IMG/VR virus record: IMGVR_UViG_3300029219_000192
Length of the DNA: 7,860 nucleotides
Reading direction: 5' to 3' (one strand)
Origin: a virus
Lineage: Duplodnaviria > Heunggongvirae > Uroviricota > Caudoviricetes
Part shown: in pieces, positions 1 to 7,860 of the stretch
Layout: the number at the start of each line of letters is the position of its first letter
Position numbering within the stretch: the first letter of the stretch is position 1
Notes under the pieces: model-generated
Told to the model about the DNA's origin: nothing
What the model saw: only the letters and a program-made list of their open reading frames with translations
Databases searched by the model: none
Translations under genes and position numbers: made by a program

Positions 1-77
1 TAAGCAGAGTTTTTGAAATGTAAGGCCTTTGAATAAGACAAAAGGCTGCCTCATCGCTAACTTTGCAACAGTGCCCT
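1..77. repeat. Left copy of a perfect 77-bp inverted repeat (partner at 7762-7838); may extend beyond the window edge
   Basis: Bases 1-77 are the exact reverse complement of 7762-7838, checked base by base; first mismatch is at 78 vs 7761. The copy runs to window position 1, so its outer limit is unknown. Confidence 0.95.
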
Positions 78-225
78 TTAAAGCACGTTTTAATCCAGGT
101 CGGCCTGTCCTTATTCCGCTTAATTTATCTTCAAATATTTGTTCACATCCTGCACAAACAAGAGCGTTTCGTTGCAGGTCTGTATTCTGGTCATTTGTTG
201 ATACCCTTACATAGCCAATCAGCAC
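76..225 (-). pseudogene. pin: Serine DNA invertase (Pin/Gin/Hin family), N-terminal 50-codon fragment fused to the inverted-repeat sequence
   Basis: Minus-strand translation from GTG at 223-225, verified codon by codon: MLIGYVRVSTNDQNTDLQRNALVCAGCEQIFEDKLSGIRTGRPGLKRALK. This matches the invertase N-terminus including the catalytic-serine motif VRVSTNDQ; GGGAG lies 7 nt upstream of the start. Homology stops at codon 50 (76-78), exactly at the repeat boundary; the frame then reads GTVAKLAMRQPFVLFKGLTFQKLCL with no stop before the window edge. The catalytic-domain remainder and C-terminal DNA-binding domain are absent. Confidence 0.85.
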
Positions 226-279
226 GCTGAATCTCCCGTCCAAAAGCACAAATCATGCCATGCAGGCCAGAAACCGCCA

Positions 280-305
280 TTATCTAAAACCTCGGTTTAC
301 AGGAA
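280..305. other. pix/gix-like 26-bp crossover site for a Gin-family invertase
   Basis: TTATCTAAAACC-TC-GGTTTACAGGAA at 280-305 fits the gix/hix-type site (two 12-bp inverted half-sites around a 2-bp core; consensus recalled from memory, about one mismatch). It lies between the pin fragment and the tail-fibre cassette, the expected position. No second convincing copy was found in the window. Confidence 0.7.
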
Positions 306-329
306 ACGGTAAACAGGGCCAGGAACGCC

Positions 330-1292
330 GTGCAAAAGAATGGCGATACCTTGTCCGGTGGGCTTACTTTTGAAAACGACTCAATCCTTGCCTGGATTAG
401 AAATACTGACTGGGCAAAGATTGGTTTTAAAAATAATGCCGACAGCGACACTGATTCATACATGTGGTTTGAAACAGGCGACAACGGCAATGAATATTTC
501 AAATGGAGAAGCCGCCAGAGCACCACAACAAAAGACCTGATGACTCTTAAATGGGATGCTTTGTCTGTCCTTGTTAAAGCCCTTTTCAGCAGTGAAGTAA
601 AAATATCGACAGTCAATGCACTGAGGATATTTAATTCATCTTTTGGTGCTATTTTTCGTCGTTCTGAAGAATGCCTGCATATCATCCCTACACGAGAGAA
701 TGAGGGAGAAAATGGTGATATAGGGCCACTACGCCCCTTTACGCTTAATCTCAGAACTGGTCGGATAAGCATGGGGCATGGTCTTGATGTTACAGGGGAT
801 ATATTTGCAAACCGTTTTGCAATTAACAGTAGTACCGGCATGTGGATTCATATGCGTGACCAGAATGTTATTTTGGGACGCAATGCGGTATCCACCGATG
901 GTGCGCAGGCATTACTTCGTCAGGACCACGCTGATCGCAAATTTATGATTGGTGGACTGGGGAATAAGCAATTTGGCATCTACATGATTAATAACTCAAG
1001 GACAGCCAATGGCACCGATGGTCAGGCGTACATGGACAACAATGGCAACTGGCTTTGCGGTGCGCAAGTTATTCCCGGCAATTATGGTAATTTTGACTCA
1101 CGTTATGTGAGAGATGTCCGACTTGGTACACGTGTTGTTCAGACTATGCAAAAAGGCGTGATGTATGAGAAATCAGGTCATGCAATTACGGGGCTTGGCA
1201 TTATCGGTGCAGTTGATGGCGATGATCCGGCAGTATTCAGACCAATACAAAAATACATCAATGGCACATGGTATAACGTCGTACAGGTGTAA
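330..1292 (+). CDS. Side tail fibre protein, C-terminal variable (receptor-binding) cassette; lacks the constant N-terminal part
   Basis: 320-aa ORF from a GTG. The N-terminal region (QKNGDTLSGGLTFENDSILAWIRNTDWAKIGFKNN...YMWFETGDNGNEYFKWR) is the conserved segment found just after the crossover site in Stf-type fibres. The frame is open from 288, just past a TAA at 285-287 inside the pin-proximal pix half-site. It is followed 3 nt later by tfa. No constant tail-fibre region lies upstream. Confidence 0.8.
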   Translation: MQKNGDTLSGGLTFENDSILAWIRNTDWAKIGFKNNADSDTDSYMWFETGDNGNEYFKWRSRQSTTTKDLMTLKWDALSVLVKALFSSEVKISTVNALRIFNSSFGAIFRRSEECLHIIPTRENEGENGDIGPLRPFTLNLRTGRISMGHGLDVTGDIFANRFAINSSTGMWIHMRDQNVILGRNAVSTDGAQALLRQDHADRKFMIGGLGNKQFGIYMINNSRTANGTDGQAYMDNNGNWLCGAQVIPGNYGNFDSRYVRDVRLGTRVVQTMQKGVMYEKSGHAITGLGIIGAVDGDDPAVFRPIQKYINGTWYNVVQV

Positions 1293-1295
1293 TTT

Positions 1296-1823
1296 ATGCA
1301 GCATTTAAAAAATATTAAGTCTGGAAATCCAAAAACAAAAGAACAATATCAGCTAACAAAGAATTTTGATGTTATCTGGTTATGGTCCGAAGACGGAAAA
1401 AACTGGTATGAGGAAGTGAAAAACTTTCAGCCAGACACAATAAAGATTGTTTACGATGCAAATAATATTATTGTCGCCATCACCAAAGATGCCTCCACGC
1501 TTAACCCTGAAGGTTATAGCGTCGTTGAGGTTCCAGATATTACAGCCAACCGCTGCGCTGATGATTCCAGTAAGTGGATGTTTAGGGACGGAGCTGTGGT
1601 TAAACGGATTTATACGGCAGACGAGCAACAACAACAGGCCGAATCACAAAAGGCCGCATTGCTTTCCGAAGCTGAATCAGTCATCCAACCGCTGGAACGC
1701 GCTGTCAGGCTGAATATGGCAACAGACGAGGAACGCACACGACTGGAAGCATGGGAACGCTACAGTGTTCTGGTCAGCCGTGTGGATACGGCAAATCCTG
1801 AATGGCCACAAAAACCAGAGTAA
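1296..1823 (+). CDS. tfa: Tail fibre assembly protein (lambda Tfa family)
   Basis: 175-aa ORF starting 3 nt after the tail-fibre stop. The C-terminal region ([34 protein letters not shown]) closely resembles the lambda Tfa C-terminus (EAW..Y.VL..RVDT...EWP). Confidence 0.85.
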
Positions 1824-1826
1824 AAA

Positions 1827-2258
1827 TTAAGGCCCGATACCGGGCAAAACATCCGTCAACAGTTCATCAATTTCTGTCGGGCCGAAGCCTGTCAGGGAGA
1901 CATCAAAATCAGCATTGATTAGGTCCGACAGCTCCATCCGCAACAGATCTTCATCCCAGCCAGCATTCATCGGTAGGCGATTATCTGCCAGGCGGTACGC
2001 CTTTTTCTGCTCATCCGTCAGGCCAGACAGAACAATGACCGGAACAGAATCCATTTTGAGCATTTCAGCCGCCATAACACGACCGTGACCCGCAATAATT
2101 TCGCCCTTTTCGTCAATCAGCACCGGATTAGTCCAGCCGAATTGCTTAATACTTTCTACCAGTTGTGCCACCTGCTCAGTACTGTGCGTCCTGGCGTTGT
2201 GCGCATACGGTGACAATTCTTGTAATGGGCGATAGACTATCTTTAATTTCTCGCTCAT
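1827..2258 (-). CDS. ParB-like nuclease-domain protein (ynaK-like by position next to trkG)
   Basis: 143-aa ORF with an AAGG RBS. The N-terminal region (PLQELSPYAHNARTHSTEQVAQLVESIKQFGWTNPVLI) resembles ParB/sulfiredoxin-type domains. It sits directly downstream of trkG, as ynaK does in the Rac prophage. Its stop codon is 3 nt from the convergent tfa stop. Confidence 0.6.
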   Translation of the reverse strand: MSEKLKIVYRPLQELSPYAHNARTHSTEQVAQLVESIKQFGWTNPVLIDEKGEIIAGHGRVMAAEMLKMDSVPVIVLSGLTDEQKKAYRLADNRLPMNAGWDEDLLRMELSDLINADFDVSLTGFGPTEIDELLTDVLPGIGP

Positions 2259-2395
2259 ACAGCCTTGCTTTATGAATAAAACGCACCCCAGCAGCCAGTG
2301 CTACTGGGGGCGGAGGTGTTGCTGGTAAAGTTAGGTATTGGATCAATGAGTGAGTCAATATAATATTAAACTCACAATTATAAATCAGCCATATA

Positions 2396-3853
2396 TTAGG
2401 AGCGCCAAAAAAAACCTGAAAACAATATAATAACAGGATAAATTTCAAGGCGACCAAGAATCATAGCTATGCACATTAAATATTTTGCAATGTCATTAAG
2501 CACTCCGAATGACGATGCAGTAGCCCCAAAACCTAATCCCATATTATTAATACATGCAGCCACTGTTGCAAATGATGTAAGAAAATCATATCCCATACCA
2601 TTTAACACCAGTATAAAAAACACCGTGAAGAGAGTATAAAGAAAAAAGAAACTCCATACAGACCTCATTACACGATCTGTAACTATCTTCCCTCCTACAT
2701 TTACACTCAACAACGCTCTGGGATGAGAAAGCTGATTTATCTCGTGTTTGCTTTGTTTGAAAAGTATAAGAAATCGAAGTGACTTAATTCCACCACAAGT
2801 TGAACCTATACATCCCCCAAAGAAACTTGACGACAGCAAAAACACTATCGTGTGCGTGGGCCAGTTTGCATAATCCTGCGTAGCTAAACCATTATCAGTG
2901 AGCATGGAGCTGGCAAGAAAAAACGAATGAATAAAACTTCCATGCAAGTCATACATACCTATATGCCAGACCTGGAAAGAGGTAACAATGATCACCCCTA
3001 AGGCTATTAACAGAAAGAAACGAAGTTCAATATCTCTGATTAAAGGTTTTATCGTTTTCCTGCTAATAACAATATACCAAAGAGTGAAGTTGAAAGCCGA
3101 TAGCAGGGAAAAAGAACCAGCCACCAGCTCAACCAAATAGTTATTAAAATATCCGATACTCTCGCTATGAGTTGAGAAACCACCAAGCGAAACTGTGGAA
3201 ATCCCGTGACAAATAGCATCAAACAAAGGCATTCCTGCAAGTCTATAACAGACAATACAAGCAATACCTAATAAAGAATAAGTTATCCACAGTGTCCGTG
3301 ACGTATCGGCCAGGCGGGGAGTGAGTTTGTCATCCTTAAATGGCCCCGGCATTTCTGACTGATAAAGCTTTGTACCACCAATACCCAATAATGGCAATAC
3401 AGCAACCGCCAGAACAATAACTCCTAAACCACCTATAAAATTTAACTGTGACCGATAGTACAAATATGCCCGAGGTAATGAACTAACATCATCAATTACA
3501 GTTGCTCCTGTTGTTGTTATTCCAGAAACCCCTTCAAACAGAGCATCAATGAACGTTAAATTAAGTTCTGAGTCAATCCATAAAGGGAATGCACTAATAA
3601 CAGAAAACAAAATCCAAAACATTACAATTATAATAAACCCATCACGGGTACGTAATTGAATGCCAGATTTCTTAGTTGTATACCACGCTCCGCCACCAAT
3701 GCAAAAAAATATAACGAAAGTTATAAAGAAAACGAACAGGCTTTTTTCTTTATAAAACAATGCTACAACCATTGGTGGCAACATTGAAAGACTATAGAGC
3801 CAAACCAGGAACCCACACATATGAGTAACAACTCTTACATGAGATGTATTCAT
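2396..3853 (-). CDS. trkG: Trk-system potassium uptake protein, TrkH/TrkG family membrane subunit (prophage-borne)
   Basis: Long, very hydrophobic ORF with repeated glycine-rich pore-loop-like segments (ITTTGATV, FIGGLGVIVL, STVSLGGFSTH, FGGCIGSTCGGIK). It is strikingly AT-rich compared with its neighbours and lies beside Rz/Rz1, as in Rac. The start is taken as the ATG at 3851-3853 (MNTSHVRV..., 485 aa); the ORF-track start at 3871 is a TTG. Confidence 0.85.
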   Translation of the reverse strand: MNTSHVRVVTHMCGFLVWLYSLSMLPPMVVALFYKEKSLFVFFITFVIFFCIGGGAWYTTKKSGIQLRTRDGFIIIVMFWILFSVISAFPLWIDSELNLTFIDALFEGVSGITTTGATVIDDVSSLPRAYLYYRSQLNFIGGLGVIVLAVAVLPLLGIGGTKLYQSEMPGPFKDDKLTPRLADTSRTLWITYSLLGIACIVCYRLAGMPLFDAICHGISTVSLGGFSTHSESIGYFNNYLVELVAGSFSLLSAFNFTLWYIVISRKTIKPLIRDIELRFFLLIALGVIIVTSFQVWHIGMYDLHGSFIHSFFLASSMLTDNGLATQDYANWPTHTIVFLLSSSFFGGCIGSTCGGIKSLRFLILFKQSKHEINQLSHPRALLSVNVGGKIVTDRVMRSVWSFFFLYTLFTVFFILVLNGMGYDFLTSFATVAACINNMGLGFGATASSFGVLNDIAKYLMCIAMILGRLEIYPVIILFSGFFWRS

Positions 3854-3990
3854 ATCTAAATATTCTTTCAATTATAACCACCTTGCTGCAATATTATGAT
3901 TATACTGTATAAAATTTAACTCCTCTTAGATCTTACTTCACTGTTCCTTATGAAACAATCATCAAAATGAATCATATTGTAGTTAAGATT

Positions 3991-4455
3991 TTACTTTAAA
4001 CACTGCTCGGTTATGTATTGCTGAGCACCTTCAAGTTGGGCCTGCATCATTACCAGTCGTTCCCGGAGGGTGAAATAATCCCGTTCAGCGGTGTCTGCCA
4101 GTCGGGGGGAGGCTGCATTATCCACGCCGGAGGCGGTGGTGGCTTCACGCACTGACTGACAGACTGCTTTGATGTGCAACCGACGACGACCAGCGGCAAC
4201 ATCATCACGCAGAGCATCATTTTCAGCTTTCGCATCAGCTAACTCCTTCGTGTATTTTGCATCGAGCGCAGCAACATCACGCTGACGCATCTGCATGTCA
4301 GTAATTGCCGCGTTCGCCAGCTTCAGTTCTCTGGCATTTTTGTCGCGCTGGGCTTTGTAGGTAATGGCGTTATCACGGTAATGATTAACAGCCCATGACA
4401 GGCAGACGATGATGCAGATAACCAGAGCGGAGATAATCGCGGTTACCCTGCTCAT
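3991..4455 (-). CDS. Rz: Rz i-spanin (inner-membrane lysis protein)
   Basis: Near-identical to lambda Rz along its length ([68 protein letters not shown]...). The start is taken as the ATG at 4453-4455, which overlaps the upstream endolysin-remnant stop as ATGA; the track start at 4467 is a GTG. Confidence 0.9.
4050..4235 (-). CDS. Rz1: Rz1 o-spanin (outer-membrane lipoprotein), embedded in Rz in the +1 frame
   Basis: 61-aa ORF wholly inside Rz. It has a lipoprotein signal with lipobox LVVVGC and a proline-rich region ([24 protein letters not shown]), matching lambda Rz1. Confidence 0.85.
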
Positions 4456-4676
4456 TGTTGCCCCCACAAACAGACCTCACGCTCAATCTCACGACGAGTC
4501 ATCAGGCCTTTCCATTGCTTACCGCCAGCGTATGCCCAGCGACGTAGCTGGTCACATGCGCCCTTGATATCGCCCTGGTTTATTTTGCGAAGAAGAGTAG
4601 ATGTTCTGAAATTGCCTGCGCCCACGTTATAGACGAACGAGTAAAGAGCGCCGCGCGTTGTTTCCGGTAGGTGCGA
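4452..4676 (-). pseudogene. Phage endolysin (lysozyme, R21/RrrD-like) 3' remnant: about the last 70 codons only
   Basis: Minus-strand frame ending at the TGA that overlaps the Rz start: ...[71 protein letters not shown]. This matches the C-terminus of lambdoid lysozymes (from memory). The frame is closed upstream by a TGA (plus 4677-4679) with no start codon; the N-terminal catalytic part and the holin gene are absent. Confidence 0.6.
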
Positions 4677-4794
4677 TCACTTTCGTCTACTCCGTTACAA
4701 AGCGAGGCTGGGTATTTCCCGGCCTTTCTGTTATCAGAAATCCCCTGAAAGCACAGCGGCTGGCTGAGGAGATAAATAATAAACGGGGGGCTGT

Positions 4795-4986
4795 ATGCAC
4801 AAAGCATCTCCTGTTGAGTTAAGAACGTGTATCGAGATGGCACATAGCCTCGCTCAAATTGGAGTCAGGTTTGTGCCAATACCAGTAGAAACAGACGAAG
4901 AATTTCATACGTTAGCCGCATCCCTTTCACAAAAGCTGGAAATGATGGTGGCGAAAGCAGAAGCAGATGAGAGAGACCAGGTATGA
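4795..4986 (+). CDS. Small early-region protein, YdfA-like (63 aa)
   Basis: ATG ORF with a G-rich RBS, MHKASPVELRTCIEMAHSLAQIGVRFVPIPVETDEEFHTLAASLSQKLEMMVAKAEADERDQV. Its stop overlaps the next start as ATGA. It resembles, from memory, the first gene of the ydfA-ydfB-ydfC trio of the Qin prophage. Confidence 0.5.
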   Translation: MHKASPVELRTCIEMAHSLAQIGVRFVPIPVETDEEFHTLAASLSQKLEMMVAKAEADERDQV

Positions 4987-5066
4987 CAACCACTGAATGC
5001 ATTTTTCTGGCAGCGGGCTTCATATTCTGTGTGCTTATGCTTGCCGACATGGGGCTTGTTCAATGA
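4983..5066 (+). CDS. Small hydrophobic peptide, YdfB-like (27 aa)
   Basis: MTTTECIFLAAGFIFCVLMLADMGLVQ, a single predicted transmembrane helix. ATGA overlaps with both neighbours suggest translational coupling. The alternative reading is that the next gene starts at 4997 in another frame (93-aa track ORF). Confidence 0.35.
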   Translation: MTTTECIFLAAGFIFCVLMLADMGLVQ

Positions 5067-5278
5067 CACCTCAGCAAGAAAACGCCCTTCGCAGCATTGC
5101 CCGTCAGGCTAATTCTGAAATCAAAAAAGCCAGACAGCAGTTTCCGGATAAAAACGTCGATGACATTTGCCGTAGCGTACTGAAGAAGCACCGCGAAACG
5201 GTAACGCTGATGGGATTCACACCGACTCATTTAAGCCTGGCAATCGGCATGTTAAACGGCGTCTTTAAGGAACGATGA
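5063..5278 (+). CDS. Small early-region protein, YdfC-like (71 aa)
   Basis: MTPQQENALRSIARQANSEIKKARQQFPDKNVDDICRSVLKKHRETVTLMGFTPTHLSLAIGMLNGVFKER. The start overlaps the upstream stop as ATGA. Same frame as the 93-aa track ORF (4997-5278), but the coupled start at 5063 is preferred. Confidence 0.5.
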   Translation: MTPQQENALRSIARQANSEIKKARQQFPDKNVDDICRSVLKKHRETVTLMGFTPTHLSLAIGMLNGVFKER

Positions 5279-5299
5279 ACATGAAAAGCAAAATTATCA

Positions 5300-5324
5300 G
5301 GGAGCTACAGGCTCCTTTTTTATT
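5300..5324 (+). terminator. Short GC hairpin plus T-tract (weak intrinsic terminator or small-RNA 3' end)
   Basis: GGAGC (5301-5305) pairs with GCTCC (5311-5315) around a 5-nt loop, followed by TTTTTTATT. The stem is only 5 bp, so confidence is low. Confidence 0.25.
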
Positions 5325-5376
5325 GCTCGCATTTACCCCCAAGCGTATTAACCAACAATTCAGGGATTAATGGAAG

Positions 5377-5598
5377 ATGGCAGACATCATTGATTCAGCA
5401 TCAGAAATTGAAGAATTACAGCGCAACACAGCAATAAAAATGCGCCGCCTGAACCACCAGGCTGTATCTGCCACTCATTGTTGTGAGTGTGGCGATCCCA
5501 TAGATGAGCTAAGACGCCTGGCCGTTCAGGGTTGTCGGACTTGTGCAAGTTGCCAGGAAGATCTGGAGCTTATCAGTAAACAGAGAGGTTCGAAGTGA
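5377..5598 (+). CDS. DksA/TraR-family C4-type zinc-finger protein (phage TraR-like)
   Basis: 73-aa ORF with four-cysteine motif ...HCCECGDPIDELRRLAVQGCRTCASCQ... Size and motif are typical of TraR-like proteins in lambdoid early regions. Confidence 0.8.
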   Translation: MADIIDSASEIEELQRNTAIKMRRLNHQAVSATHCCECGDPIDELRRLAVQGCRTCASCQEDLELISKQRGSK

Positions 5599-5846
5599 GC
5601 GTAATTCACTCTCAGGCACTGCGTGAAGCGGCAGAGCAGGCAATGCCTGACAACTGGGGATTTGACGCGGACCTTTTCCATGAGCTGGTAACACCATCGA
5701 TTGTGCTGACACTGCTGGATGAACGGGAAAGAAACCAGCAATACATCAAACGCCGCGACCAGGAGAACGAGGATATTGCGCTAACGGTGGGGAAACTGCG
5801 TGTTGAGCTGGAGACAGCAAAAATCAAAACTCAACGAGCAGCGTGA
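5595..5846 (+). CDS. Ead/Ea22-like early protein, N-terminal part; ORF closed by TGA but coding-like frame continues to 6008
   Basis: GTG start overlapping the TraR-like stop (GTGA). MSVIHSQALREAAEQAMPDNWGFDADLFHELVTPSIVLTLLDERERNQQYIKRRDQENEDIALTVGKLRVELETAKIKTQRAA resembles Ea22-family N-termini (from memory). After the TGA at 5844-5846 the same frame stays open for 53 more codons. Confidence 0.45.
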   Translation: MSVIHSQALREAAEQAMPDNWGFDADLFHELVTPSIVLTLLDERERNQQYIKRRDQENEDIALTVGKLRVELETAKIKTQRAA

Positions 5847-6144
5847 GTAGAAGGTGTTATCTCGGATGGAAGTAAGCGTATTGCTGAACTGGAGGCCTGG
5901 GTTGAATACACAAGAGCTGCATACGTAAGAGCAAAAGACAAGGGAGATTTGATCAGAGTTATTACCCGCCAACCAACGGGATTTTACGCTTACGTACCAT
6001 GTAATTAGGAATCCTTGAAGTGGCAGCCTAACTGCGGATACACTGAAATGGCGATTTGGTAACATGTTTCGCACAAGGCTGTTACTACACTTAGAGATAA
6101 TCAGCCATGATTAAACGCTTTGTAAAAAGTAAAAGGAAATTACA

Positions 6145-6759
6145 ATGAAAAAATCAATACTAATTTTAGGGCTTACGTTAATTGTCTCATCTCAAATACC
6201 ATCGGCAATGGCAAAAAATGAATCAAAACTATGGGTTGTTGTTGATCGAACGGAAAGACATACCTGCCCTTCAAGTAAATGTGGAGTGGCTGGGAAACTA
6301 TTTTTCAGGGAAGGCGTAGATTTTCTAGAAAAAAAAGGTGAATGGGTTCGTATAACTGAGCCATATTCAGCCTCATGTGTTGGAGGGGAAAGCGAATATA
6401 TTAAAGAAGGTAATAAATCCTGCACAAGAAAAAATGGAATCGTTAATGGCAAGTTTTCAGAATGGGTTAAACTTAGTGATCTTAGCAGTGAAAGGCCATC
6501 AGATCCTGCTGAAAATGCGAGCGGAGATGATACTTTAATCAAAGGATCTGATGACTACCGTATATACAAAAAAGAGTTTTCTTCGGCAGCTAGGAAGTTA
6601 ATAAATGAAGGGGTCTGCACGGAAAGCGATTTTAAGGAAATCGGAGGGTGGATGGCATCAAGCAATAAGGGTGAAAACATCTATTTCACATATTGCGGAG
6701 GAATGACGTTGTCGAACAGAATATACCTAGATGTTAAAAGTGGAAAGACTTTTAGATAA
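6145..6759 (+). CDS. Secreted (Sec signal peptide) cysteine-containing protein of unknown function; AT-rich cargo gene
   Basis: 204-aa ORF with an AAGGAA RBS. N-terminal MKKSILILGLTLIVSSQIPSAMA-KNE is a typical signal peptide with an AxA cleavage site and no lipobox. Several Cys lie in the mature part. Composition is visibly AT-rich compared with flanking genes, and a strong terminator follows. Confidence 0.7.
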   Translation: MKKSILILGLTLIVSSQIPSAMAKNESKLWVVVDRTERHTCPSSKCGVAGKLFFREGVDFLEKKGEWVRITEPYSASCVGGESEYIKEGNKSCTRKNGIVNGKFSEWVKLSDLSSERPSDPAENASGDDTLIKGSDDYRIYKKEFSSAARKLINEGVCTESDFKEIGGWMASSNKGENIYFTYCGGMTLSNRIYLDVKSGKTFR

Positions 6760-6829
6760 TATGATATTACCAATGACAGTATTGATTTAATGCCTCCATA
6801 GAATTATCTCTAGGAAGTAGGTATAAGAA

Positions 6830-6866
6830 AAGCCCGCACAATGAGCTGCTGCGGGCTTTGTGTTAT
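6830..6866 (+). terminator. Rho-independent terminator downstream of the secreted-protein gene
   Basis: AAGCCCGCA (6830-6838) pairs with TGCGGGCTT (6850-6858) around an 11-nt loop, followed by TTTGTGTTATT. Confidence 0.7.
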
Positions 6867-6912
6867 TCGCCATATTTTATGAAGCAAATACGACACTATA
6901 GATAATTAAGCG

Positions 6913-7052
6913 TTGCTGGTTGTCGATTCCTCAATCACTCCTGTTGATGGCTCTCTTCTTGTATGTGCCATTGAAGGGGAATATCGCGTAAAAAGATACC
7001 GGAAGTATCCGCGCCGCCATGATTGTCTTTCTCCTGATGCAGGAAAAGCAGA
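6913..7052 (+). pseudogene. S24 peptidase (LexA/UmuD/cI-type) C-terminal-domain remnant
   Basis: LVVDSSITPVDGSLLVCAIEGEYRVKRY resembles the conserved core of the S24 autoproteolytic domain (compare UmuD LLIVDSAIT...VIAAVDGEFTVKKL). There is a stop codon 6 nt upstream of 6913, no catalytic-Ser region, and the downstream translation is not protein-like. The homologous core is roughly 6913-7000. Confidence 0.4.
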
Positions 7053-7391
7053 ATGGCTAAATCAGCAACAGAGCACAAAGCCGATCAGAGAGCCAAGCAA
7101 GCATCATCCGGTATGCGTAAGCTGGAGCTTGTACTTGATGCTCAGGAAATTGAAATGCTGGAGCGTAACTGTGCCACGCGTCGCTTCAGGCGTGCGCCTT
7201 GCGAGTTTGGTGAGTACATCGCGTTACTGAGCCGCCAGGATGATGCACGTGTGCGCTGGCGTATAAAATCGATCAGCAGAAAACGGTGCGGTAAGTGCGG
7301 CGAGAGAGTTCCTGTTAATTCATGCCCGTGTAATGGTGACTCACAATGCTGGGTGACCAAAGGCTGGCACGAAACAAAATTAATGATATAA
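7053..7391 (+). CDS. Hypothetical protein with C-terminal Cys cluster (putative zinc ribbon)
   Basis: 112-aa ATG ORF with an AGGA RBS. C-terminal C-x2-C-x8-C-x-C-x5-C (RCGKCGERVPVNSCPCNGDSQCW). No family recognised. Confidence 0.6.
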   Translation: MAKSATEHKADQRAKQASSGMRKLELVLDAQEIEMLERNCATRRFRRAPCEFGEYIALLSRQDDARVRWRIKSISRKRCGKCGERVPVNSCPCNGDSQCWVTKGWHETKLMI

Positions 7392-7397
7392 ATCTCT

Positions 7398-7409
7398 GTG
7401 ACATGTCAC
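7398..7409. promoter_or_regulatory. Perfect 12-bp palindrome GTGACATGTCAC between the two module genes (candidate protein-binding site)
   Basis: Exact dyad symmetry at 7398-7409, in the 28-bp gap immediately upstream of the RBS (GGAGG) of the 7420 gene. Confidence 0.3.
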
Positions 7410-7419
7410 GGAGGCGGCA

Positions 7420-7782
7420 ATGAAATTAGACCAGCAATATCTAAAAGATCTACTTATCGCATTCGAAAAAACTCGTGGCCCTGACACGATGCTTAGTGAA
7501 CTAGAGGATAATGGCTTTAATAGATATGACCAAGATTTTATTTTCCATATGCGATTATTATGTGACTACGAATTAATAGTCAGGGTTGATGGAAAACCTG
7601 GGTTCGGTCATATATTGTCCAAAGCGTTAGGGGAAGGTGTTGGATATAGTTGGATCGAAGTACCACTGAGGTTGACAGCAAGAGGGCATGATTTTATTGC
7701 TGACTTACGTCAAAAGGATGTCTGGCAAGCTATAAAAACAAACTTTAAGGATGAGGGAATTAGGGCACTGTTGCAAAGTTAG
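7420..7782 (+). CDS. Hypothetical protein (120 aa), AT-rich; its last 6 codons lie inside the right inverted repeat
   Basis: ATG ORF with a GGAGG RBS 7 nt upstream. Protein-like composition, no recognised motif. Visibly AT-rich. It ends ...EGIRALLQS* with the stop at 7780-7782. Confidence 0.65.
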   Translation: MKLDQQYLKDLLIAFEKTRGPDTMLSELEDNGFNRYDQDFIFHMRLLCDYELIVRVDGKPGFGHILSKALGEGVGYSWIEVPLRLTARGHDFIADLRQKDVWQAIKTNFKDEGIRALLQS

Positions 7783-7838
7783 CGATGAGGCAGCCTTTTG
7801 TCTTATTCAAAGGCCTTACATTTCAAAAACTCTGCTTA
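7762..7838. repeat. Right copy of the perfect 77-bp inverted repeat
   Basis: Exact reverse complement of 1-77. Covers the last 6 codons and stop of the 7420-7782 ORF plus 56 bp downstream. Confidence 0.95.
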
Positions 7839-7860
7839 CCAGGCGCATTTCGCCCAGGGG

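What the first reader, a model, noticed from the sequence alone, without database searches (positions are those of the whole stretch)
7053..7782. Two-gene module of unknown function at the right repeat (Cys-cluster protein plus AT-rich 120-aa protein)
A 112-aa protein with a C-terminal C-x2-C-x8-C-x-C-x5-C cluster is followed 28 bp later by a 120-aa AT-rich protein. The gap holds a perfect 12-bp palindrome (GTGACATGTCAC) just upstream of the second RBS. The module ends inside the inverted repeat, and I recognise neither protein. Its position at a prophage boundary next to an S24-repressor remnant makes it a candidate accessory module, such as a regulator with effector or a defence or exclusion pair, but this is speculative.
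Basis: inference. Interest (0 to 1): 0.55.

Follow-up and report, generated by a model that had tools for sequence, protein, structure and literature searches.

The report
Phage DNA-binding gene, palindrome, IS26-cut neighbour
The supposed two-gene module is one intact phage gene for a small DNA-binding protein that carries its own conserved palindromic site, followed by a neighbouring gene of unknown function that an IS26 insertion has cut short, so it is an ordinary phage remnant apart from the protein-plus-site pairing.

Summary
The sequence features are real: a 112-aa ORF (7053-7391) with a Cys cluster, a 28-bp gap holding GTGACATGTCAC (7398-7409), then a 120-aa ORF (7420-7782). The second ORF is not a native protein. 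It is a 142-aa DUF2513 gene cut by IS26 at 7764, keeping 114 native residues plus 6 encoded by IS26. The "right repeat" is an IS26 end, not a prophage boundary.

ORF A belongs to an uncharacterised temperate-phage family (PHROG 536; epsilon15 gp49). Its high-confidence model is a ribbon-helix-helix fold followed by a four-Cys domain.

The palindrome travels with ORF A, not with DUF2513:
- It lies on or beside the ORF A stop codon in 25 of 31 loci from different species.
- It recurs 1-3 times in all six ORF A phages checked, and is absent from P22 and lambda.
- Its sixth base changes with the protein clade.

ORF A followed by DUF2513 recurs in a subset of phages, but each gene more often occurs without the other. 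No defence-system hit was found.

My best reading is a regulator-plus-operator cassette at the end of an early operon, with DUF2513 (probably a winged helix) as one of several alternative downstream genes. Binding is inferred, not shown. Interest is moderate.

The parts
6913..7050 (+). UmuD-like (peptidase S24) gene fragment; context only, not a repressor
   Evidence: Pfam S24 match is weak, E 0.037. RefSeq annotates it as a 'DNA repair protein' pseudogene. Phage Chlobot annotates it as 'UmuD-like'.
7053..7391 (+). ORF A, 112 aa, intact. N-terminal basic helix, then ribbon-helix-helix (about residues 20-62), a long helix to residue 74, the Cys cluster C79/C82/C91/C93/C99 (7287-7349), and a final helix at 100-108.
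7398..7409 (.). Perfect 12-bp palindrome GTGACATGTCAC, the probable binding site of ORF A. It has the same 5-bp half sites as matS, with a spacer of 2 instead of 3.
   Evidence: matS consensus from PMC6907758.
7410..7414 (+). Shine-Dalgarno GGAGG of the DUF2513 gene. In RNA it can pair into a 9-bp hairpin built on the palindrome.
   Evidence: Sequence. Hairpin of -10.8 kcal/mol, z -1.98.
7420..7763 (+). Native part of the DUF2513 gene (residues 1-114 of 142), 3'-truncated
   Evidence: Pfam PF10711, 42.8 bits against a cut-off of 29.6. PHROG 585. Alignment to the intact 142-aa gene.
7764..7860 (.). End of IS26 (inverted repeat GGCACTGTTGCAAA at 7764-7777). It supplies the last 6 codons and the stop (7764-7782) of the chimeric 120-aa ORF.
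   Evidence: 100% identical to the end of an annotated IS26. Thousands of plasmid matches.
1..75 (.). The same end of a second IS26 copy, in inverted orientation, bounding the captured 7.68-kb prophage fragment

Best explanation
The functional unit is ORF A plus the palindrome, not ORF A plus the 120-aa ORF.

ORF A is a small temperate-phage DNA-binding protein. It has an N-terminal basic helix, a ribbon-helix-helix domain, a long helix and a C-terminal four-Cys (probably zinc) domain (shown by model and fold comparison). I infer that a dimer of it recognises GTGAC-N2-GTCAC. This site sits on or just after the gene's own stop codon in most family members and recurs at a few other places in the same phages, often at operon ends beside terminators. 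Because the gene is usually the last one in an early operon, the most likely action is local control of what lies downstream: blocking or limiting read-through, or repressing the next gene. That last step is a guess.

In the native lambda-like phage both genes lie in the early-left operon between the ea22-like genes and xis/int, the slot that ea8.5 occupies in lambda. DUF2513, a probable winged-helix protein of unknown function, is one of several alternative genes found downstream of the cassette.

In this window the whole stretch is a passenger in a prophage fragment captured between two inverted IS26 copies, found on plasmids. IS26 has removed the conserved C-terminal 28 residues of DUF2513.

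Approximate likelihoods:
- ORF A is a ribbon-helix-helix DNA binder: about 0.8.
- The palindrome is its site: about 0.6.
- It acts as a roadblock or repressor: about 0.3.

For: **The site tracks ORF A.**
- GTGAC-NN-GTCAC lies at or next to the stop in 25 of 31 loci found by protein search in different species, whatever gene follows.
- It is present for 72 of 85 unique homologs overall, most often with the TGA stop inside the palindrome.
- All six ORF A phage genomes carry 1-3 perfect copies, 12 in 254 kb against about 0.04 expected per 40 kb. P22 and lambda, which lack ORF A, carry none. Five of those six lack DUF2513.

**Co-variation.** The clade with ribbon sequence INEIRARLE has GTGACG half sites (15 against 0). 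The RKLELVLD clade has GTGACA (33 against 2).

**Position.** ORF A is the last early gene, before a terminator, in epsilon15. It is the last early-left gene before xis/int in AH07.

**Truncation and IS26.**

**Native context.**
Against: - No binding data exist, and nothing in the searchable literature covers the family or the 12-mer.
- An operator downstream of its own gene is unusual.
- The extra sites are heterogeneous. Some sit beside terminators and some inside coding regions of ZF40 and AH07. One Yersinia phage has no site at the ORF A stop.
- The genome comparison covers only 6 phages with ORF A and 2 without.
- The palindrome is also kept, 11-12 of 12 bases, upstream of DUF2513 genes that have lost ORF A. 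That would also fit a role in DUF2513 expression.
- The RNA hairpin that covers the DUF2513 ribosome-binding site is an alternative or additional role.
Confidence: 0.6

Rival explanations
1. The pair is a toxin-antitoxin-like or defence/exclusion module: a ribbon-helix-helix antitoxin or regulator (ORF A) followed by its effector (DUF2513), autoregulated through the palindrome.
Against: - ORF A mostly occurs without DUF2513 and with no constant partner; terS, a 70-aa ORF, a 123-aa ORF, NinB-like and UmuD-like genes all follow it.
- DUF2513 occurs alone in about 10 of 26 clusters and in other contexts. A free-standing toxin would not tolerate that.
- There are no PADLOC hits.
- DUF2513 gives winged-helix echoes, not a toxin fold.
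- The palindrome lies downstream of ORF A rather than at a promoter, and no promoter-like site is found in the region.
Confidence: 0.08
2. The palindrome is the operator of DUF2513, a winged-helix dimer regulating its own gene, and ORF A is unrelated to it.
For: The palindrome sits 22-24 nt before the DUF2513 ATG in every locus that keeps it, including loci where ORF A has been reduced to a 3' remnant. Winged-helix proteins commonly bind palindromes.
Against: - The palindrome is present at ORF A ends in phages and genomes with no DUF2513 at all: epsilon15, ZF40, AH07, TL-2011b and 25 species loci.
- DUF2513 loci that lack any ORF A remnant also lack the palindrome.
Confidence: 0.08
3. The palindrome acts at the RNA level. 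A hairpin masks the DUF2513 ribosome-binding site, so that DUF2513 is translated only when ribosomes finishing ORF A open it (translational coupling). No protein binding is needed.
For: A 9-bp hairpin of -10.8 kcal/mol pairs with GGAGG. ORF A stops 6 nt before it. The palindrome always abuts the GGAG of DUF2513.
Against: - The fold z-score is only -1.98.
- The core palindrome alone gives a 4-bp stem.
- The stem bases are invariant rather than co-varying.
- The same 12-mer occurs where no gene start follows, beside terminators and inside coding regions.
- This reading can coexist with DNA binding.
Confidence: 0.15
4. The site is a matS-like target for the host protein MatP, or ORF A is a phage MatP homolog acting on host matS sites.
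Against: - The spacer is 2, not 3.
- No 13-bp matS was found in the four phage genomes checked.
- Profile comparison of ORF A with E. coli MatP is not significant, E 0.21.
- ORF A lacks MatP's N-terminal four-helix bundle.
Confidence: 0.05
5. ORF A is a TraR/DksA-type zinc-finger factor that binds RNA polymerase rather than DNA.
For: The profile of the family weakly matches YbiI and TraR chains over the C-terminal half, E 0.05-0.07. A true TraR/DksA gene lies nearby at 5377-5598.
Against: - The E-values are not significant.
- The Cys spacing (C-x2-C-x6-9-C-x7-9-C) differs from C-x2-C-x17-C-x2-C.
- The N-terminal half is ribbon-helix-helix.
Confidence: 0.03

Closest known systems
Ribbon-helix-helix regulators (CopG/Arc/MetJ superfamily, e.g. 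P22 Arc and Mnt, and the MazE/ParD/TacA antitoxins)
   Same: The predicted strand-helix-helix core. The best structural matches. Small size, phage origin, and a short palindromic target.
   Different: - No significant match to any Pfam RHH family for this protein.
- An extra N-terminal basic helix, a long third helix and a conserved four-Cys C-terminal domain.
- The candidate site lies on the gene's own stop codon rather than at its promoter.
E. coli MatP and its matS site (GTGACRNYGTCAC)
   Same: A ribbon-helix-helix DNA binder preceded by a basic helix and followed by a long helix. The 5-bp half sites are identical. Several copies of one palindrome are scattered over a replicon.
   Different: A 12-bp site rather than 13-bp. 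No four-helix bundle. No detectable sequence homology. A zinc-type domain in place of the C-terminal coiled coil. Phage-borne.
YbfE, the 'LexA regulated protein' (NCBIfam PRK11675, CopG family), and the IncFII CopB/RepA2-type RHH proteins (the latter recalled from memory)
   Same: The layout of an N-terminal basic stretch followed by the ribbon and first helix. Weak profile match at E 0.007 over residues 9-48. One phage record names its homolog 'RepB-like replication regulatory protein'.
   Different: The score (16.8 bits) is far below the family cut-off of 62. Those proteins have no Cys domain.
DUF2513 (Pfam PF10711; PHROG 585)
   Same: The second gene is a clear member, 42.8 bits against a cut-off of 29.6.
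   Different: The window copy lacks the conserved C-terminal 28 residues. The family has no known function, and only one unrelated paper mentions it.
Accessory genes of the lambda early-left operon (ea8.5 slot, between ea22 and xis)
   Same: Same position and same flanking genes: DUF1317, DUF1382, an ea22-like gene, the 55-aa ORF, xis and int.
   Different: The gene content of the slot differs.

Membership tests
PHROG 536 / epsilon15 gp49 family | Full-length profile match | tested here: met
   E 7.3e-48 over residues 1-111. 70% identity to epsilon15 gp49.
Ribbon-helix-helix superfamily | Strand-helix-helix fold | tested here: met
Ribbon-helix-helix superfamily | Significant match to a curated RHH sequence family | tested here: not met
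   No Pfam family for the window protein. Only 1-2 of 59 homologs give E 0.01-0.07 matches.
Ribbon-helix-helix superfamily | Dimer that binds a repeated or palindromic DNA site | not testable with these tools
   Only indirect support: conserved palindrome, recurrence and co-variation.
MatP/matS | Sequence homology to MatP | tested here: not met
   hhalign E 0.21. No PDB sequence hit.
MatP/matS | N-terminal four-helix bundle | tested here: not met
   Only one helix (residues 5-19) precedes the ribbon.
MatP/matS | 13-bp site GTGACRNYGTCAC | tested here: not met
   The site is 12 bp. No 13-mer was found in four phage genomes.
TraR/DksA zinc finger | C-x2-C-x17-C-x2-C finger and a significant profile match | tested here: not met
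   Different Cys spacing. E 0.05-0.07 only.
DUF2513 (PF10711) | Profile match above the gathering score | tested here: met
   42.8 bits against 29.6.
DUF2513 (PF10711) | Complete protein | tested here: not met
   114 of 142 residues remain; the rest is replaced by IS26.
Type II toxin-antitoxin or known defence system | Conserved obligate gene pair | tested here: not met
   0 of 33 species loci of ORF A carry DUF2513. DUF2513 is often alone.
Type II toxin-antitoxin or known defence system | Match to a known defence or toxin model | tested here: not met
   No PADLOC hit for either protein.
IS26 | Terminal inverted repeat and identity to an annotated IS26 | tested here: met
   97 of 97 bases identical to the end of an annotated IS26.

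The most novel reading that the evidence does not exclude
The ORF A family is a phage counterpart of MatP/matS in principle. A ribbon-helix-helix plus zinc-domain protein recognises a dedicated GTGAC-N2-GTCAC site that marks the ends of transcription units: its own stop codon and the flanks of terminators. There it would insulate operons or control read-through into late or cargo genes, or bridge the sites to organise the phage chromosome. In epsilon15-like phages, which have no annotated Q-type antiterminator, it could be the missing switch between early and late transcription.
Probability: 0.15. Interest if true: 0.7.

Novelty: new variant of a known kind. Interest (0 to 1): 0.4.

Why it matters
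For this window it matters little. The stretch is a broken passenger in an IS26-bounded prophage fragment on plasmids, and there is no sign of a defence system.

The by-product is more useful. An unstudied but widespread temperate-phage protein family now has a confident fold and a specific candidate DNA site that can be tested directly. The family has about 390 sequence clusters in Enterobacterales and Aeromonas phages, and includes epsilon15 gp49. If the pairing holds, it would give a handle on how epsilon15-like, P2-like and lambda-like phages delimit or switch their operons. It would also replace the bare label 'transcriptional regulator' with a mechanism.

Tried and rejected
- **Sequence searches for ORF A found nothing significant.** Pfam, NCBIfam, PADLOC and PDB sequence searches were all tried.
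- **First AF2 run.** Using only close homologs gave an unusable model, pLDDT 54. Adding distant representatives fixed it.
- **Structure-library searches.** Foldseek against PDB and the viral library gave nothing useful. The only viral hit was a 46-aa fragment of the same protein, auto-named 'ubiquitin-binding zinc finger'. The AlphaFold database library was not available.
- **MatP homology rejected.** hhalign E 0.21.
- **TraR/DksA reading rejected.** Different Cys spacing and no fold match.
- **First conclusion revised.** My early view that the pair never co-occurs changed after I saw ORF A 3' remnants upstream of DUF2513 and scanned 80 viral DUF2513 loci.
- **Promoter in the gap.** I considered one with GTGACA as the -35 element and dropped it. 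The scan found none, and transcription would start inside DUF2513.
- **Other searches.** Rfam gave no match. The viral-contig search with the broad alignment failed for lack of a conserved stretch.
- **Literature.** Nothing on DUF2513 function, the 12-mer or epsilon15 gp49.

Full report
**1. What is in the sequence**

- A 112-aa ORF at 7053-7391 ending in CGKCGERVPVNSCPCNGDSQC.
- A 28-bp gap.
- A perfect palindrome GTGACATGTCAC at 7398-7409, followed at once by GGAGG.
- A 120-aa ORF at 7420-7782.

ORF A has GC 0.50 and the second ORF 0.38. They therefore have different compositional histories.

**2. The right end is IS26, and the second gene is truncated**

The window ends are a 77-nt perfect inverted repeat. 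The right arm from 7764 is 100% identical to the end of an annotated IS26. The last 90 bases match thousands of plasmid loci.

The 7,684 bp between the repeats are 100% identical and contiguous in several E. coli chromosomes as part of a degenerate prophage. The same stretch occurs on plasmids of E. coli, Enterobacter, Citrobacter and Klebsiella.

In intact copies the second gene is 142 aa and is annotated 'DUF2513 domain-containing protein'. The window copy is identical through residue 114, then reads RALLQS-stop from IS26. The lost 28 residues are conserved across the subfamily.

Some plasmids keep the gene intact, followed by the 55-aa ORF, xis and int. So the 'prophage boundary' is an IS26 junction, and the 120-aa protein is an artefact.

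**3. Native context**

In E. coli prophages at the ybhC site and in phage Chlobot the order is as follows:
- exo, DUF1317, DUF1382, TraR/DksA
- an ea22-like gene, a 204-aa lipoprotein, a UmuD-like fragment
- ORF A, DUF2513, a 55-aa ORF, xis, int

This is the early-left operon of a lambda-like phage. In lambda the same slot holds ea8.5. I found no promoter-like site in or around the gap, so both genes are presumably read from the upstream operon.

**4. ORF A**

- It matches no Pfam family but matches PHROG 536, labelled 'transcriptional regulator', at E 7e-48.
- There are 394 clusters of homologs at 90% identity and 183 representatives at 50% identity. They come from Enterobacterales, Yersinia and Aeromonas phages.
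- Members include epsilon15 gp49, phiV10, TL-2011b and ZF40 gp22. The epsilon15 record notes similarity to N15 gp46.
- Across 70 diverse members C79 and C82 are invariant, and C99, P87 and G95 are nearly so. One Cys at position 91 or 93 is usually kept, giving C-x2-C-x6-9-C-x7-9-C.

With close homologs only, AF2 gave pLDDT 54. With the diverse alignment it gave 90.8. The model has helix 5-19, an extended stretch at about 20-29, helices 30-43 and 52-74, a Cys knuckle, and helix 100-108.

A weak C-terminal resemblance to the TraR/YbiI fingers (E about 0.05) is not backed by Cys spacing or by fold.

**5. The palindrome belongs to ORF A**

In 33 loci found by protein similarity in 33 species, none has DUF2513 within 4 kb, and the downstream genes vary. 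Yet 25 of 31 evaluable loci carry GTGAC-NN-GTCAC at or next to the ORF A stop. Typically it appears as G-TGA-CATGTCAC, with the stop codon inside the palindrome. Over all loci held, 72 of 85 unique homologs have it. That set is partly biased by loci that were seeded with the palindrome.

Counts of the palindrome in complete phage genomes:

| Phage | ORF A homolog | Perfect copies |
|---|---|---|
| epsilon15 | yes | 3 (after terL; on the stop of gp18, 2 nt before a terminator; on the stop of gp49 before a terminator) |
| ZF40 | yes | 3 |
| AH07 | yes | 2 |
| TL-2011b | yes | 2 |
| Chlobot | yes | 1 |
| Yersinia vB_YenM_42.18 | yes | 1 |
| P22 | no | 0 |
| lambda | no | 0 |

The chance expectation is about 0.04 per 40 kb. 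Only Chlobot among the six also has DUF2513.

The Yersinia prophage clade has a different ribbon sequence, INEIRARLE instead of RKLELVLD. It uses GTGACGCGTCAC plus an extra GTGACG half site about 30 nt downstream. The counts are 15 GTGACG against 0 GTGACA in that clade, and 2 against 33 in the main clade. This co-variation is the best indirect evidence that ORF A reads the site.

An exact search of viral contigs found 135 sites. Of these, 41 lie at ORF A ends and many abut terminators. Some are inside conserved coding sequence and some sit in arrays of GTGAC half sites.

**6. The matS resemblance**

However, profile comparison is not significant (E 0.21), ORF A lacks the four-helix bundle, and no 13-mer occurs in the phages checked. 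I treat this as a working analogy, not as membership.

**7. DUF2513 and the pair**

The second gene is a clear DUF2513 member and belongs to PHROG 585, of unknown function. It has no PADLOC hit, no solved relative and no relevant literature. Sixteen of 38 homologs give weak winged-helix matches, best E 0.001, so a winged-helix fold is likely. I could not model it.

I examined 86 DUF2513 loci plus the native one, forming 26 clusters at 90% identity:
- ORF A lies directly upstream in 9 clusters.
- An ORF A 3' remnant plus the palindrome is kept in about 7.
- About 10 clusters, mostly the most distant, have neither.

Where present, the palindrome is always 22-24 nt before the ATG and abuts GGAG.

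Seen from the ORF A side, 22 of the 80 closest viral loci have DUF2513 downstream, all from the lambda-like lineage at 93% identity or more. Fifty-five have other genes.

The adjacency is therefore real and recurrent but not obligatory. It looks like one of several cargo genes placed behind a regulator-plus-site cassette.

In RNA, the palindrome extended by its flanks forms a 9-bp hairpin that covers the DUF2513 ribosome-binding site (-10.8 kcal/mol, z -1.98). Translational coupling may add to, or in this lineage replace, a DNA-level role.

**8. Verdict**

It misreads the second ORF, which is truncated by IS26, and the boundary, which is IS26 rather than a prophage end.

The best explanation is an early-operon terminal ribbon-helix-helix/zinc protein with its own palindromic site, plus a broken DUF2513 cargo gene. 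The fold is shown by prediction. The link between site and protein rests on conservation, recurrence and co-variation. The mode of action is a guess.

I rate novelty as a new variant of a known kind and interest as moderate, 0.4.

Noticed in passing
window 1-75 and 7764-7860; interior 76-7763: Two inverted copies of the same IS26 end bracket a 7.68-kb piece of a chromosomal E. coli degenerate prophage that includes the potassium transporter gene trkG (2396-3871, minus strand). The same piece occurs on large plasmids of E. coli, Enterobacter, Citrobacter and Klebsiella. Some of these plasmids have IS26 only on the left (junction at window 116) and keep DUF2513-xis-int intact.
   Followed up: partly
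window 330-6759: The interior is itself a deletion mosaic. Tail-fibre C-terminus, tail-fibre assembly, a ParB/Srx-like gene, trkG and Rz/Rz1 run straight into early-left operon genes: DUF1317, DUF1382, TraR/DksA at 5377-5598, an ea22-like fragment, and a 204-aa lipoprotein of PHROG 8310 at 6145-6759.
   Followed up: no
window 6913-7050; L002, L004, L010, L025, L026, L029 just downstream of the ORF A homolog: A UmuD-like fragment lies upstream of ORF A here. In other phages an intact UmuD-like gene or another gene with a near-perfect LexA box (e.g. TACTGTATATAAATACAGTA) lies just downstream of ORF A and its palindrome. ORF A and SOS-controlled genes are therefore frequent neighbours.
   Followed up: no
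L126 (epsilon15) 2142, 19517, 39612: Three identical copies of GTGACATGTCAC mark the ends of the terminase unit, the structural late operon and the early operon. Two of them supply the TGA stop of the last gene, and at least two (19517, 39612) lie just upstream of an annotated rho-independent terminator. The record annotates no Q-type antiterminator.
   Followed up: partly
L148, L196, L234, L177, L167 (viral contigs): In some contigs the palindrome sits inside dense arrays of GTGAC/GTCAC half sites, which look like iterons.
   Followed up: no
L036-L041, L080, L082-L084 upstream of DUF2513: DUF2513 genes in Citrobacter and Serratia prophages and in related viral contigs carry a 60-80-nt fossil of the ORF A 3' end (coding ...GWHETKL) plus a slightly decayed palindrome. 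This shows that the cassette moved by recombination inside ORF A.
   Followed up: yes
L128 (Yersinia phage vB_YenM_42.18) 7980-8318, 11675-11719: This P2-like phage has an ORF A homolog after gene A with no palindrome at its stop. A perfect copy and a near-perfect copy lie 3.3 kb downstream, after an Smc-like gene.
   Followed up: no
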